DNA of 64,000 nt from Chrysemys picta bellii (lineage: Eukaryota). Position numbers: made by a program. This document shows positions 19,263 to 25,200 of the stretch, piece by piece (positions within the stretch are counted from its first letter, which is position 1; each line of letters begins with the position of its first letter). The DNA lies in assembly GCF_011386835.1 (NCBI RefSeq), contig NC_088791.1, positions 88,722,001-88,786,000 on the forward strand, read 5' to 3'.

Positions 19263-22200
19263 TTACAAAACCAGAATAAACAGGCTATGTTAGCGCGTTG
19301 TGCTCTCTGTATATCGTCTGGGGGCCGACCTGTTTGAGAACTTTCAAAGAAAGGGGTGGAGCCTTGGCCCTGTTTTCCACCGCATCCCACCTCCTCCGGT
19401 TGCAGCTGCCTGCACGAGGCGTGCTTTAGAAGAAAAGAGGCGGGTTATTGAGTTTGCTGTCCACCTCTCCGCTCCCCTTCCCTCCCACCCTGCTGTAGTT
19501 ACATTCCCCGAGATTTGATTTAAAGAAGGAAGATAAAATAGATAGTGTGTCTCAGTATTACAAACGAATCTGTCAAAATTAGATGATCACAATGATCCCT
19601 TCTGGCTTTGGAATCTATGAAAAAGTCCTGCTTTCAGTAATTAGGTTTGCAATGTAACCCCGCAGTTACAGGTAATATCGCCCGTCACTGTGAATTGTGT
19701 AAAATAAGAGCCACTTTCCAACTGATTTTTTTATTTGTCCTTAGCTTATAATCTTCCTTTCTGGAAGGTCTTCCATCAAGAGGTTTTCATATTTGTGGCC
19801 ATTTTTTCAAACCCTCCCCTGATTTTCAAGCATTTACAGACAGCATCAAAATCTGACCAATCCGGTTTCCGGACACATCGTCTCTCCCCAGTCTTTTCTA
19901 AAGCCTGTTCAGGGAGGGTTAATATGAATGAAAAGTGCACATTTATTTCATCATAAGATAAAGCAGGACACCGCATTCTTTTCTTCCATTTGTTAAATTG
20001 GTTCATTTGGTGGTATGCTCGTTCTTACTGTTCCTTTCACAGTACATGCAATAGTGTGACTAATGCATAAAAACGACTGCAGAACTAATCGCTCACAAAA
20101 CCAGACTGCTTGCCCATTGCAGAGAAAAGAACTCATGTCTCTACCTCAGAGGCAGGAATCATTGTTTTATGTTGGGAAGGGGTCAGTTTCTGAATTGCTT
20201 ATATGCAAACGGGGGCTCGGGGGCAATACTTAGAAAACGATGTTATATGTGCAAACATGGCAACGCAAAGGCTACACTGCACCAATTTAGTACGAACCTT
20301 CATATCTTTGGAAAGCCTGGGTGAATATTATCTGAAGGGGGTTCTCAAAAGCCGTTGAAAAACGTGTCACCCTTTCTCGTTCCTTATCCTCTGTCAAAAT
20401 TAGATGATCAGACGCATGTGGTGGTATTATACCTGCCTCTGGAAATTTCCACCACATGCGTCTGATGAAGTGGGTATTCACCCACAAAAGCTTATGCTCC
20501 AAAACGTCTGTTAGGCTATAAGGTGCCACAGGACTCTGTCGCTTTTTACAGATCCAGACTAACTAACACTACCCTTCTGATAATTGCCCCATCTACCAGC
20601 TCCAGATGAATTGCATACACCATCTTCGATGAAATGAGATTGGACTTTAACAACAATAGCTCCAGCCCATGTCAACAAACTTCTTCTCTTCTCCCCAAAA
20701 GGACATTTATTACCATCTTTGATATAACCACAAGGGTTTTCCTTCTAAAACTCTCTCCAGCTAAAGGGAAAGGGAACAAAGGATATTATTAAAATTAAAG
20801 CCTTGTTTAATACTTTACATTTCAATGTTTGAACTGCTTTTTTTTCCTTTTCTGTATCTTTAATTAAAAAAAAAAAAGTTAAAAGGATGTATAACAGGCT
20901 TGACAACCCCCAAACCTTGTTTAATGCTGGCAGAGTGCATCTATCACACATCACAACATTCATAGTTTACACCAGTTCAATCTCACTGAAGTCAATATAA
21001 TTGCCACAAAGAAAAAGTTCAGCCATTGATTAAAATTGTGGGGAAATACATTTTATTGCCCACATTAAAATGTTCTCACAATGGTTGTCTTTAGAAGCTC
21101 AAGCTCCTCTATGCTTTAAGGCACATACTTGACATCAAGCAGACTGGCCACAAAAGTGTCAGGGATATCCTTTTTGTTATCCCCATGAAAATCTATCCCA
21201 GTGTGGACAAGTTATTAGCCTCTGAAAACTCTCAGTCCATACATGTTCAGCAGAGCATTTTTCGTTTGGCACCTAAATTGTCTGAAGATTGGCTTCCCTT
21301 ACTATTGTCCCTCCTCAGACAGTTAAGCAGAACTTCCCCTGCAAAAAAACTCCTTGCATCTATCAAGGATCACTGTGATTTCAGGCACTGGAAATTAAAG
21401 CAGGGAGACTGTCTTTTCTATAGTTTGCATGCCCCCACTTTTGGCATGTAGGCAGGATGAAGAAGCATATATTCAACTGGAATTCAGAGGGGTGAAGAGC
21501 TTGGTGAGAGAGCAGGAGACAGGAGATGGTGAAGGGGGAGGAGTAGGACATAGACAAGTTAGAAGGGTCTGAATAGAAAGGGTCACACTAAAGATGGAAA
21601 AGGGCAGAAGGGTCTGTAACTATAGAAAACACTCCCCTCTAGAGTCTGGAATAAAACCCAGGATTCCGGAATCTCAACATTCTTGTGTTGTAAGAAAATA
21701 TCTGTAAAACCCTCTGGAACAAATGTGTTTCCTTCTTCTCTAATGGCAGGTCCACATACGGGATAGCAATCTCAACTGGTTATCAGTTGGAACAACTAGC
21801 AGAGGTTTACACTAGTTCTAAATGTCCTTCCCAACCCTTAGGGAATTCCTAATGTATTCGAGTGAAGGTCATTCTGAGAAGCATCAGTAAGGATGTGATT
21901 TCTAGAGAATTGGGTAAAAGACTGAAAGCACAGCCCGGGAGAGAAACAAGAATAGAAAGCAGAGGTGGCGATGTAGGAGAGTATGAACAGAGCGGGTTTT
22001 AATCAAGGAAAAAGGAAGAACAATGAAAAATGCTTCCTCCCCCCCATTCCCCGTTATTAGTGCTCCACTTTCAGAGAATAAAAGTTTCCAAGTGCCCGAC
22101 GTATCTGATTTGAAGATAAACAAAAATCCCCGTGTGAGGTATTTTGTACTTGGTAAATTGACAGTACTCCACACACAACTCACCATCTTACATGGGGACC

Positions 22201-25200
22201 TATGGATTTAACAGTGACTCTCCCTACCTCCAATAAGAGAAGCGGGGACGAGTTGCCACAGGCCAATCCTTGCAAAGCGCGGGCTTTTCAAACTCACCAA
22301 CGGGATTAATCCTGATCCCACCACTGCCAGCTAGGCAGAAAAGTGTGTGTGTGTGTCTAGGTCATGCAGTTTACCCTCACACGCAGTCCTCACTCGCCCC
22401 TCCTACTAGACAATAAATCCTGTCTGGACCGAAGCTCATGTGCAAGGAATGGCCACCTTCCCCCTCCTTTTACACAATAAGCATGATTGCTAAAGCTCGT
22501 TCCCCTCCGTTTGGGGTTGTTGTTGTTTTCTGCTGGGTGGATAAGGGAAGAATTTGGCTGCTAGTGATCGTGAATTTGGGCTGATGCTCAGGATCGATTT
22601 TAATACACCCAGCTCGAATATAAATGAATTAACGTCCCGCATTTTAAAGTACTGATATTGTTATTTCTTGTCGCGGGCGAAGGAAAATGTACCAAACTGA
22701 TTCTAATTTTATGTCTCCCTATTTTCTATTATTTTCGTTTCTGAAAGTTGGGCGCTTCATGAAAAGCAGCACGAGGTTATTTAAACGAACCTGGTGTGTT
22801 TCAGCTCCTCTGGGAAAGGGTGGGTGGCTCTTAAAAGAGCCGTTGGATTTCTGTGCATGACATTTTTTCTAGCCCGTTTACTTCTTCTTGGGCGCTGCCT
22901 TCTTAGCCTTCGTTGCTTTAGGCTTCGTCGGTTTGGGCTTGGCCGCCTTAGGCTTTACCGCTTTGGCCTTAGCCGGGCTCTTAGCTGCCTTCTTGGGCTT
23001 AGCGGCTTTCACCTTTTTCGGGCTCTTGGCCGTTTTTTTAGCTGCGGCAGCTGCTGGTTTCTTGGCTTTTTTCGGGCTCTTTTTCACGGCCGCAGCTTTT
23101 TTGGGTTTCTTGGCGGCGCTGGCGGGCTTCTTGGCAGCTGGTTTCTTAGGCTTTGCCGCTGGCTTTTTCTTCGGCGCCTTCTCCTTGGTCTCGCCAGGCT
23201 TCTTGTTGAGTTTGAAGGAGCCGGATGCGCCGGTGCCTTTAGTCTGCACCAAGGTGCCCTTGCTCACCAGGCTCTTGAGCCCCAGCTTGATGCGGCTGTT
23301 GCTTTTCTCTACATCGTACCCTCCGGCGGCCAGAGCCTTCTTAACAGCTGCCAGCGAGACCCCTTTGCGCTCCTTGGAAGCGGACACCGCCTTGGTGATC
23401 AGCTCGGTCACGCTGGGACCTGGAGGCTTACGGGCTTTAGAAGTAGCTGGCGTCTTCTTCGGTTTTTTAGCGGAAGTTTTTGCCCCAGGAGCGGAGACAG
23501 CAGGAGCTGCAACAGGCGCCGTTTCCGACATAGCGATAAGCGTTTTCCAAAAATCAGAAAAGGAAAAAAAAACTAGATCTAGAGAAGGGCAGACGGCTGG
23601 TATTTATAGAGAGGAGCTGCTCTGTGATTGGCGCACTAAAGAGCCCGCCCAGCTGAAAGCAAAAAGGTCTCTTCTCCCCTCTCTGTGTTTCTTCGGAGTT
23701 AAAAAGGGGTACTTTTTGCAAAATATTTATCACCAAATCACCCTGTTTCTTAGTTGGGTGAAGAGGAGACAGGGCATTTTCATTCAGTAGAGTTTCCCGT
23801 AGGAGAGACTAAAGATAAGCTAAAAAATTGCCAATAAACCCCGAGACCTGGAGCTAGAGAGACCTCTGAAGAGGGAAACTTTTGTTTTTCGTTGTAAATT
23901 AAAACCATATCACTGTCAATAAAATCACATGTACACTTATATCTCATTCTTTAGAATGTTTTCTCCAAATCAAAGTATAAAGCCAGTCATTTGAAGCAAT
24001 GTTGTCAGTGTAAAATGATTTCAAAAAGAAGAAAGTAACACAAGCTCATCCTTGTGCTTTGAATAAGGATTAAGAATTGGCTCTCTTAACCAAATCTTCT
24101 ACCCCCTAAAATACTTAATTCTGTTGAAAAACTCCATTAATGAAAACAACAGAGAGCTGATCAAATACCTCAGGAGGGATATTTATGTTCCAGGAATTGT
24201 ATATAAAAGTTGTTGTGCTATTGTACCTTTCTAGGTATTGAAATAGAAGATTAACAAGATGTCATTATTATTTTGTAAATTTCAAATTCATTTTACTGTA
24301 TTGCTCTTTAACTTAATTTTATTCCAAGAAAGTCACTTCTGTTCATTAAAAGCAGTGGCAGTTTTTTAAATGGTAGTGTTCTGAACTTTAATTTAAAATA
24401 GAAGAACTATTAGGGTGTTTATTTCATTATAGTCTGTTAAAACTCATCGAAAGTCAGAAGCAATGTTTCAGTAAAAAACTAAACCATATGGAGAATTAAA
24501 GCTCAAAATCTGATCAATCAGTGCTTTTTTTTCCTTAGCATTAATATATTATATGAAAATGGCTTCTGTAGTGAGGAAAATCAATGTTAACAGTGTGATT
24601 TAGTCATATCTGTATTGCATCAAGAACTGAATGAGATTTTTAATCTGTTCTGCAACATTACTAAAGATGATTCACTCTTTTGTTCTTTTAAAAGTGATGG
24701 GGGCATTCAAACAGTTTAAAAATCAATCCAAAAATTCTTTTTAAAGACAATGTCAAATTCCAGGCGGGGGGGGGGGGGGGAGGCTTATTTATTCATCATT
24801 TACCTTAGAGTTGCAAACAATTGAGGAAATTGCTTTTCTTTCAATTCTGCAATGGTAGTTAGGTTTTACTTGTGATTATATTGGGTGAAAACTAGGCCAC
24901 AGTCAGCTATTAAACAACGGTGAAGAAGCCCAATTTTAGATTGAATGTAATATAATAATACAATAATAATATTTAAACATAATTAATAAAAATGCAAAAC
25001 ATAATTGTGACAGTGTACCCCATAGGGCTTTATGGGGGGGTGCTTATAAATGTATGTATGACATAATTGGAATATGTTTTGTGCTGCCTGTGCCATGTAA
25101 TATATCTCCGTAAAGGTTATGGTCTACTATATCTATTCATGCTATCTGTACACATATATCATTTTCTACTTGAGGTTAAGAATATGGGCTGTATACTTGC

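What the first reader, a model, noticed from the sequence alone, without database searches (positions are those of the whole stretch)
22050..22297. A dispersed non-coding module occurs five times, and only two copies precede a gene
Seen: related sequence at ~14880-15466(+) and its mirror (both upstream of H3), 22050-22297(+), 53208-53556(-) and 54967-55545(+). All end at the same 16-bp motif, and three have no H3 or recognisable gene downstream. Inference: either orphan promoters of deleted H3 genes, or a locus-level element (cell-cycle enhancer, histone locus body nucleation site or origin) retained independently of genes. Retention of the terminal motif favours function.
Basis: partly seen in the sequence, partly recalled or inferred. 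Interest (0 to 1): 0.68.

Follow-up and report, generated by a model that had tools for sequence, protein, structure and literature searches.

The report
Histone-cluster spacer repeat with shared motif
An old, low-copy stretch of spacer DNA in a vertebrate histone gene cluster ends in a short sequence that also sits just upstream of the two histone H3 genes; it is probably a protein-binding control site, but nothing here shows what binds it.

Summary
The 16-base motif GCGCGGGCTTTTCAAA is real. It has 9 matches (8 exact) against 0.02 expected. They lie at five places, but two of those are arms of a 99.85% inverted duplication, so four are independent.

The 'module' is only partly real.
- The copies at 22.0, 53.2-53.6 and 55.0-55.6 kb (B, C, D) are true homologues.
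- The H3-upstream copies (A, A') share only the motif and one 14-mer with them. The body is not shared.
- I found a sixth copy (E, 63.56-63.85 kb). It lies 3' of an H1 pseudogene, in the position that B holds next to the intact H1. Its motif has decayed.

No H3 promoter or coding remnant follows B, C, D or E, so 'orphan H3 promoters' is not supported.

Conservation of the motif above the background of the module holds for B against D (32 of 33 columns, best elsewhere 24) and for A. It does not hold for C.

Best reading: old duplicated spacer segments that carry a short cis-element, which also serves as the distal element of the H3 promoter. Its layout (G/C hexamer, four bases, TTCAAA) resembles a CDE/CHR cell-cycle site. 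That resemblance is untested.

No eukaryotic genome collection was available, so the transposon test and the cross-species test stay open. Interest is moderate.

The parts
15451..15466 (+). Motif copy A. Exact 16-mer, 151 bases before the H3 start codon (15617). It lies 13 bases before the distal CCAAT, with a second CCAAT and a TATA-like run (about 15530) after it.
   Evidence: The position relative to the transcription start (about -95 to -110) is inferred from the TATA run and was not measured.
14879..14892 (+). 14-mer AGACGACATGGGGG in the H4-H3 spacer. It is also exact at the start of D (54983-54996) and in the mirror arm (18340-18353). It is the only other thing that A shares with the module family.
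17766..17781 (-). Motif copy A', the mirror of A in the other arm of the 3.3-kb inverted duplication, upstream of H3(-) 17205-17615.
22030..22297 (+). Module B, homologous to the 3' two thirds of C and D. The motif is at 22277-22292 and a CCAAT lies just before it. The terminal 33 bases (22265-22297) match the D repeat units at 32 of 33. B lies 510 bases beyond the 3' stem-loop of H1(-), on the opposite strand.
53187..53559 (-). Module C, full length. The motif is at 53210-53225 with one mismatch and a 5-base deletion just before it. C starts about 220 bases beyond the H2A stem-loop on the same strand as H2A. Its 3' end abuts segment X' (52810-53185).
54965..55311 (+). Module D, body. It forms an inverted pair with C around the lone H2A gene.
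55312..55567 (+). Module D, terminal element expanded to a 51-bp tandem array (4.6 units) plus a short tail shared with C. There are five exact motif copies, starting at 55324, 55375, 55426, 55477 and 55529. Its end lies about 710 bases from the H4(-) stem-loop.
63560..63850 (-). Module E, the sixth copy, decayed. It lies 3' of the H1 pseudogene, in the place and orientation that B has next to H1. It keeps GGCCAATCC..GCAAAG.GCGG, but by my count only 9 of the 16 motif bases remain: one CpG has become TpG and the T-run/TTCAAA half is gone.
15617..16027 (+). Histone H3 gene, with its mirror copy at 17205-17615(-). These are the only genes that follow a motif copy.

Best explanation
B, C, D and E are copies of an old spacer segment of about 350-390 bases. 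It was spread within the histone cluster by segmental and inverted duplication. They are not relics of H3 promoters.

The 3' end of the segment carries an element of about 24-33 bases, with the core TGCA(C)A(A)GCGCGGGCTTTTCAAA. The same core sits just upstream of the distal CCAAT box of the two H3 promoters.

I read this core as a binding site for a sequence-specific protein, for three reasons:
- it is kept where the surrounding sequence has diverged beyond recognition (A) or to about 59% identity (B against D);
- it has been multiplied five-fold at D;
- it has decayed in the one copy that lies beside a dead gene (E).

The layout is a G/C hexamer (GCGCGG), four bases, then TTCAAA. That is the layout of a CDE/CHR cell-cycle element with an inverse CHR. 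My most likely mechanism is therefore recruitment of a MuvB/LIN54-type or similar cell-cycle factor to the H3 promoters and to three gene-less spots of the cluster.

Shown: the motif, the homologies, the lack of genes downstream, and the uneven conservation. Inferred: that the core binds a protein, which protein, and any effect on transcription.
For: - The motif is far above chance: 9 matches against 0.02 expected.
- B against D: the terminal 33 columns have 32 matches, against a best of 24 and a median of 17 elsewhere. The binomial P is about 5e-7 at the body identity of 58.6%.
- A shares a 17-18-mer with B and D and has no body homology.
- The variation among the five D units lies in the spacer part of the unit, not in the 33-base core.
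- E, next to a frameshifted H1 with a degenerate stem-loop, has lost the motif, although its body is as similar to B (129/213) as B is to D.
- B and E were duplicated together with H1.
- All copies lie inside CpG-preserved domains. CpG observed/expected is 0.61-0.79 for the bodies and 1.20 for the array, against 0.21 in the neighbouring repeat-rich DNA. The two CpGs of the motif are intact in all 9 copies.
- Literature, passages read: the CHR consensus is TTYRAA and the CDE lies four base pairs upstream (PMC4974476). The inverse CHR TTCAAA is functional in Ube2c and Plk4, and about 40% of a class of DREAM-bound early cell-cycle genes are histone genes (PMC4176359 and PMC3287175).
Against: - In C the terminal element is no better kept than the body: 25 of 33 against a best of 30 (C-D), and 25 against 25 (B-C). 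C also has a 5-base deletion next to the core.
- The B-D identity could come from a short gene-conversion tract rather than from selection.
- The sample is four independent motif sites plus one decayed copy, so the contrast 'kept beside live genes, lost beside the dead one' rests on a single case.
- On the CHR reading:
  - the G/C part meets the published CDE code SGCGCGS at only 6 of 7 positions;
  - CHR genes peak in G2/M and mostly act at the start site, whereas histone genes peak in S phase;
  - the same paper reports that the DREAM-bound human histone promoters had no conserved CHR or E2F site;
  - B, C and D have no known start site;
  - the match was found after the fact, among many possible factor motifs.
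- No binding, chromatin or cross-species data were available.
Confidence: 0.4

Rival explanations
1. Neutral relics. The copies are leftovers of birth-and-death duplication in the cluster and have no function. The high identity of the terminal element in A, B and D comes from short gene-conversion or template-switch events between nearby repeats, helped by the tandem array.
For: - The cluster is a patchwork of old duplications of similar age: H1 at 73.7%, segment X at 70-79%, C-D at 71-78%.
- C shows no excess conservation of the element.
- E has lost the motif.
- The arms of the big inverted duplication are 99.85% alike, so sequence exchange or very recent duplication does occur here.
Against: - In A the identity is only 17-18 bases (about 24 with one indel) and the flanks are unrelated. 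That is shorter than a usual conversion tract (established knowledge, not tested here).
- The motif holds two CpGs, intact in all 9 copies.
- The binomial P for 32 of 33 at body identity is about 5e-7.
Confidence: 0.28
2. Dispersed repeat. The module is a non-autonomous mobile element or other genome-wide repeat that happens to have three or four copies here. The H3 promoter took over a fragment of it, or the element once captured a piece of an H3 promoter.
For: - C and D have sharp homology ends on both sides with unrelated flanks.
- Module order and orientation relative to the genes are not collinear between the two sub-clusters.
- A marginal body-like fragment lies outside any histone domain at 26755-26827: E 0.015, and 2 of 200 shuffles against C.
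Against: - I see no target-site duplication, terminal inverted repeat or A-tail at the ends of C and D (my reading).
- There is no tRNA-like head (0 tRNA genes) and no Rfam match in or near the modules at E<=1.
- B and E were copied together with H1, not inserted on their own.
- All four sure copies lie in histone domains, which make up roughly a third of the window.
Confidence: 0.17
3. Orphan H3 promoters. B, C and D once drove H3 genes that have since been deleted.
For: - The motif is part of the upstream region of both intact H3 genes.
- A shares two ordered anchors with D, the 14-mer and then the motif.
- The gaps between the motif and the next gene's 3' end (510 and about 710 bases) are close to the size of an H3 unit (676 bases).
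Against: - No H3 coding remnant at E<=10.
- No promoter or gene similarity downstream of B, C, D or E (best E 2.2).
- No histone fold in the 10 of 18 downstream reading frames that were scanned.
- The module body is unrelated to the H3 upstream flank.
- The B/E pairing with H1 predates the H1 duplication.
Confidence: 0.08
4. Small RNA gene, or a decayed histone 3' end. The module ends in a G/C-rich stretch followed by a T-run, like a Pol III unit. The core also loosely recalls the loop of the histone stem-loop.
For: The T-run (T4, T5 in C) directly follows GCGCGGG. By eye, the context of B (CAAAG...CTTTTCA.A..CACC) recalls the consensus around histone stem-loops.
Against: - Rfam finds only the true histone stem-loops, and nothing at any motif even at E<=1 with lax filters.
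- The core cannot form the 6-bp stem.
- The CACC context is present in B only.
Confidence: 0.04

Closest known systems
CDE/CHR cell-cycle promoter element (bound by DREAM/MuvB through LIN54 and E2F4-DP)
   Same: The core reads G/C hexamer GCGCGG, four bases, then TTCAAA. TTCAAA fits the LIN54 consensus TTYRAA and is the 'inverse CHR' shown to work in Ube2c and Plk4. CCAAT boxes lie next to it in A, B and E, as in many CHR promoters (passages of PMC4974476, PMC4176359 and PMC3287175).
   Different: - The G/C part meets the published code SGCGCGS at 6 of 7 positions only.
- Known CHR genes peak in G2/M, not S phase.
- Known sites sit at start sites, whereas three of the four sites here have no gene.
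- Human DREAM-bound histone promoters were reported to lack a conserved CHR.
- Binding is untested.
Subtype-specific upstream elements of replication-dependent histone promoters (H1 box, H2B octamer, H4 site II; named from my own knowledge)
   Same: It is a short element just upstream of the CCAAT/TATA part of one histone subtype only. The motif occurs in neither of the two distinct H4 promoters nor in the H2A or H1 promoter of this window, even at 3 mismatches of the 14-base core.
   Different: It also occurs away from any promoter, inside a repeated spacer segment and as a five-fold tandem array. The exact string is not in the searched literature: 0 papers hold the 16-mer on either strand.
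GA-repeat/CLAMP element of the Drosophila H3-H4 promoter, which seeds the histone locus body (from my own knowledge; the papers listed were seen as listings only)
   Same: A short repeated cis-element tied to the H3 promoter region of a histone cluster. It could in principle act at the level of the locus.
   Different: Different sequence and a different animal group. There is no evidence here of any locus-body role. This is only the frame for the boldest reading.
Birth-and-death duplication relics in 'jumbled' vertebrate histone clusters (passages of PMC13525598)
   Same: Old paralogous segments at 60-78% identity, a pseudogene, and an H2A without an H2B partner all fit that picture.
   Different: Plain relics would not keep a 33-base block at 32 of 33 while the rest is at about 59%.

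Membership tests
CDE/CHR element | A hexamer that fits the LIN54 consensus TTYRAA | tested here: met
   TTCAAA is present in all 9 motif copies. The consensus is taken from passages of PMC4974476. The inverse orientation is reported as functional.
CDE/CHR element | A G/C-rich CDE four nucleotides upstream of the CHR (published code SGCGCS / SGCGCGS) | tested here: inconclusive
   GCGCGG-GCTT-TTCAAA gives the four-base spacing. The heptamer is (A/T)GCGCGG in every copy, which is 6 of 7 against SGCGCGS.
CDE/CHR element | Sits at or near the start site of a cell-cycle gene | tested here: inconclusive
   In A and A' it lies about 65 bases upstream of the TATA-like run of H3. B, C and D have no gene or start site downstream.
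CDE/CHR element | Bound by LIN54/MuvB (DREAM, MMB) in cells or extracts | not testable with these tools
   No binding data were available. The passage says that human DREAM-bound histone promoters lacked a conserved CHR.
Orphan H3 promoter | H3 proximal promoter (two CCAAT boxes and a TATA) or H3 coding remnant downstream of the motif | tested here: not met
   tblastn with the window's H3 finds only the two intact genes; the other hits have E>=5.1. blastn of the H3 unit against the four downstream flanks gives a best E of 2.2. Pfam finds no histone fold in the 10 of 18 frames scanned.
Orphan H3 promoter | Upstream flank homologous to that of the intact H3 genes | tested here: not met
   A-B and A-C are at shuffle level. 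The body profile finds nothing in the H4-H3 spacer at E<=100. Only a 14-mer is shared with D.
Transposable element / SINE / MITE | Structural hallmarks: target-site duplication, terminal inverted repeats, A-tail, or a tRNA/7SL/5S-derived head | tested here: not met
   None is seen at the ends of C and D by reading. ARAGORN finds 0 tRNA genes. Rfam finds nothing in the modules at E<=1.
Transposable element / SINE / MITE | Many copies dispersed over the genome | not testable with these tools
   No eukaryotic genome collection was on hand. Within the window there are four sure copies, all in histone domains, and one marginal fragment outside.
Histone 3' stem-loop (RF00032) | A match to the covariance model (6-bp stem, 4-base loop, flanks) | tested here: not met
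   Only the stem-loops of the intact histone genes match. Nothing matches at any motif copy at E<=1.
Segmental duplication relic | Flanking DNA duplicated along with the module | tested here: inconclusive
   Met for B/E: H1 plus its 3' flank plus the module. Not met for C/D, whose flanks are unrelated on both sides.

The most novel reading that the evidence does not exclude
The core is a lineage-specific, cluster-level control element of the replication-dependent histone locus. It would be a CDE/CHR-like docking site that works at the H3 promoters and also at gene-less spacer sites, with the five-fold array at 55.3-55.5 kb as its strongest platform. It would help to mark or assemble the active histone domain, either as a vertebrate counterpart of the Drosophila H3-H4 promoter seed for the histone locus body or as a shared S-phase enhancer or silencer. 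It would be lost where the neighbouring gene has died.
Probability: 0.12. Interest if true: 0.75.

Novelty: new member of a known kind. Interest (0 to 1): 0.38.

Why it matters
How vertebrate histone clusters are recognised as a unit, and what gives H3 genes their own control, is poorly defined. [quoted passage not shown]

A short element shared by the H3 promoters and by gene-less spacer repeats, multiplied five-fold at one site and decayed beside a pseudogene, is a concrete and cheap target for binding and reporter tests.

If it turns out to be an ordinary repeat with a converted end, the finding is just part of the normal duplication debris of such clusters.

Tried and rejected
- Known RNA family: Rfam at gathering thresholds on the whole window, and at E<=1 on 52700-56300 and 21500-22900, gave only histone stem-loops. 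ARAGORN gave 0 genes.
- Coding potential:
  - Pfam on 6 reading frames inside the modules gave nothing above a curated cut-off.
  - Pfam on 10 of the 18 downstream frames of at least 35 aa gave no histone. One hit (DUF1636, E 0.11) is far below its cut-off.
  - H2B could not be searched by similarity, because the window holds no H2B to use as a query. Only the Pfam histone model covered it.
- Body homology of A: local alignment, shared 9-mers and an nhmmer profile were all negative apart from the 14-mer.
- Decayed histone stem-loop: rejected.
- Dyad symmetry AAAGC-GCGG-GCTTT around the core: present in B only and shorter in A and D, so dropped.
- Literature:
  - The 16-mer on either strand is in 0 papers.
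  - The two 12-mers are in 25 papers. The 20 listed have unrelated titles (listing only).
  - Searches for H3-specific promoter motifs gave nothing that names this element.
  - Old scanned papers on chicken histone genes are not in the searchable library.
That collection holds only bacteria and archaea and cannot answer the genome-wide question.
- Supplements of the CHR papers, which list individual sites, were not seen.

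
Full report
CONTEXT

The window has no N and holds part of a vertebrate replication-dependent histone cluster. The genes and related features are:
- H4(+) 13997-14308 and H3(+) 15617-16027;
- their mirror copies H3(-) 17205-17615 and H4(-) 18924-19235;
- H1(-) 22878-23531;
- a reverse-transcriptase-bearing repeat region at about 36-49 kb;
- H2A(-) 53864-54253, with no H2B partner;
- H4(-) 56330-56641;
- an H1 pseudogene at 62646-63256(+).

I do not take the window for human. Its H1 differs at many positions from every solved H1 chain. 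My impression that it looks like a bird or reptile H1 is recall only. H3 and H4 proteins are too invariant to say anything about the species. No spliced gene model was needed. Nothing from the window was sent to any contig or sample collection.

THE MOTIF

GCGCGGGCTTTTCAAA has 9 matches at <=2 mismatches (8 exact, one with one mismatch). The expectation is 0.02, and none of 100 shuffles reaches 9.

The sites are 15451(+), 17766(-), 22277(+), 53210(-) and five at 55324-55544(+). The last five belong to a 51-bp tandem array of 4.6 units.

Relaxing the 14-base core to 3 mismatches adds only chance-level hits (16 found against 7 expected). None of those lies in an H4, H2A or H1 promoter.

The first two sites are not independent. 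They lie in the arms of a 3,291-bp inverted duplication at 99.85% identity. There are therefore four independent sites: A, B, C and D.

THE MODULE

C (53187-53559, minus strand) and D (54965-55567) are clear homologues: 71% over 401 columns and 248 of 318 ungapped columns.

B (22030-22297) matches the 3' two thirds of both:
- 126/215 ungapped columns against D and 128/204 against C;
- with the motif excluded, 0 of 200 shuffles reach the observed local score for either pair.

A is different:
- With the motif removed, A-B and A-C score at shuffle level (192 and 106 of 200 shuffles as high).
- A profile of the B/C/D body finds nothing in the H4-H3 spacer even at E<=100.
- What A shares is a 17-18-mer around the motif (about 24 bases if one indel is allowed).
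- A also shares one exact 14-mer with the start of D.

The 14-mer is unlikely to be chance. Two of 2000 shuffles give a match that long, and none of 102 real chunks of the window exceeds 11. A may therefore be a copy whose interior has been replaced, or it may simply carry two short elements. I cannot tell which.

A SIXTH COPY

The body profile also hits 63721-63822 on the minus strand (E 4e-4). Alignment shows a decayed copy, E, over 63560-63850. It is significant against B (0 of 200 shuffles) and against D (1 of 200), but not against C (38 of 200).

E lies 3' of a second H1, on the opposite strand, just as B lies 3' of the intact H1. The two H1 segments are 73.7% identical over 1,348 bases. 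That second H1 is dead: its start codon is out of frame with the body, and its stem-loop is altered and does not reach the Rfam threshold.

B and E were therefore copied together with H1. In E the sequence before the core is well kept (GGCCAATCC..GCAAAG.GCGG). By my count, only 9 of the 16 motif bases remain, with one CpG turned to TpG and the T-run/TTCAAA half gone. The E-B body identity (129/213) equals that of B-D.

A further fragment at 26755-26827 is marginal: E 0.015, with 2 of 200 shuffles against C but 15 and 17 of 200 against B and D. I do not count it as a copy.

NO GENES DOWNSTREAM

- tblastn with the window's own H3, H4, H2A and H1 finds no further H3. The four extra H3 hits have E 5.1-6.5.
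- The H3 promoter-gene unit (15467-16130) has no similarity to the DNA after B, C, D or E (best E 2.2).
- Pfam finds no histone fold in 10 of the 18 downstream reading frames of at least 35 aa.
- Pfam finds nothing above cut-off in six frames inside the modules.
- In their own orientation, B and D run into the 3' ends of H1 and H4 on the other strand (510 and about 710 bases away). C runs into segment X' and then into CpG-poor DNA.

'Only two copies precede a gene' is therefore right, and 'orphan H3 promoters' is not supported.

IS THE MOTIF KEPT BETTER THAN THE REST?

Matches in sliding 33-column windows:

| Pair | Terminal window | Best window elsewhere | Median elsewhere |
|---|---|---|---|
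| B-D | 32 | 24 | 17 |
| B-C | 25 | 25 | 18 |
| C-D | 25 | 30 | 24 |

- For B-D the binomial P is about 5e-7 at the body identity.
- C also has a 5-base deletion beside the core.
- The excess conservation is therefore real for A, B and D, absent for C, and reversed for E.
- Among the five D units the differences fall in the spacer part of the unit. They are too few to test.

SETTING

CpG observed/expected:

| Region | CpG o/e |
|---|---|
| Module bodies | 0.61-0.79 |
| D array | 1.20 |
| A spacer | 1.02 |
| Repeat-rich 24.2-39 kb | 0.21 |
| Segment X' | 0.24 |

The copies lie within CpG-preserved domains that coincide with the histone genes. B and C lie at the edges of such domains. This fits DNA that is unmethylated in the germ line, but it is not specific to the modules.

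WHAT THE MODULE IS NOT

- It is not a known RNA family.
- It is not tRNA-derived.
- By reading the ends of C and D, it has no target-site duplication, terminal inverted repeat or A-tail.
- Order and orientation of modules and genes are not collinear between the two sub-clusters. Segment X (12815-13210) lies upstream of H4 in one, while its copy X' abuts the end of C in inverted order in the other.
- C and D form an inverted pair around the lone H2A.

MECHANISM

The core reads GCGCGG, four bases, then TTCAAA. From passages I read:
- The inverse form TTCAAA works in Ube2c and Plk4 (PMC4176359, PMC3287175).
- About 40% of the early cell-cycle subset of DREAM-bound genes whose promoters lack a conserved CHR or E2F site are histone genes.

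The resemblance is therefore specific in layout, and CCAAT boxes adjoin the core in A, B and E. Against it:
- the G/C part meets the published code at 6 of 7 positions;
- CHR genes peak in G2/M;
- three sites have no start site;
- the human histone promoters in that study lacked a conserved CHR.

I give the general claim (a protein-binding cis-element shared by the H3 promoters and old spacer copies) about 0.4. The CHR-type reading is a minority share of that.

WHAT STAYED OPEN

- The genome-wide distribution of the module and its presence in other species could not be checked. No eukaryotic genome collection was on hand. The bacterial and archaeal collection cannot answer the question.
- Supplements of the CHR papers were not seen.
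- Older chicken histone papers are not in the searchable library, so 'not in print' rests only. That call found 0 papers for the 16-mer on either strand, and 25 papers for the two 12-mers, of which the 20 listed have unrelated titles.

Noticed in passing
12840-16130 and 17102-20392: A large palindrome. Two 3,291-bp arms (each H4 then H3) are 99.85% identical, with the two H3 genes tail to tail and a spacer of about 970 bases. The spacer itself holds a self-inverted element at 16598-16764 (91.7%). This means a very recent duplication or ongoing sequence exchange between the arms.
   Followed up: partly
62646-63348: H1 pseudogene. Its start codon is in a different frame from the body, there is no upstream in-frame ATG, and the stem-loop is altered and below the Rfam threshold. 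It is 73.7% identical to the intact H1 segment over 1,348 bases.
   Followed up: yes
53864-54966: H2A stands alone. Its promoter side keeps CCAAT boxes, but no H2B follows. Instead there is A-rich, CpG-poorer DNA (54450-54966). H2B could only be looked for with the Pfam histone model.
   Followed up: partly
12815-13210, 20020-20392 and 52810-53185: A second old duplicated spacer segment ('X'), 70-79% identical between the two sub-clusters. It lies upstream of H4 in one, and abuts the 3' end of module C in inverted order in the other.
   Followed up: partly
13490-13548 / 19684-19742 and 57030-57088: A 59-base block (79.7% identity) is kept about 390-510 bases upstream of all three H4 genes, in the gene's orientation. 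It may be an H4 upstream element.
   Followed up: no
36214-37287 and 47740-48830, with frames at 39392-44531: Two direct repeats of about 1.1 kb (83.9% identical) flank about 10 kb that includes a reverse-transcriptase frame (RVT_1, E 1.3e-8). It looks like an old LTR-type retroelement between the two histone sub-clusters. The frames are broken into pieces. I only describe it and did not analyse it further.
   Followed up: no
16573-16764, 20467-20582, 27347-27549, 32703-32811, 52158-52241: A family of short repeats, partly self-inverted and hairpin-like, is spread over the window, including the centre of the big palindrome. It is probably a miniature mobile element.
   Followed up: no
26755-26827: A marginal match to the middle of the module body, outside any histone domain: nhmmer E 0.015; 2 of 200 shuffles against C, but 15 and 17 of 200 against B and D. 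If real, it would favour a dispersed repeat.
   Followed up: partly
15250-15320: The H4-H3 spacer is a strong CpG island (observed/expected about 1.0-1.15). It holds a short (GA)n run and G-rich tracts about 150-200 bases before the motif. Its significance is unknown.
   Followed up: no
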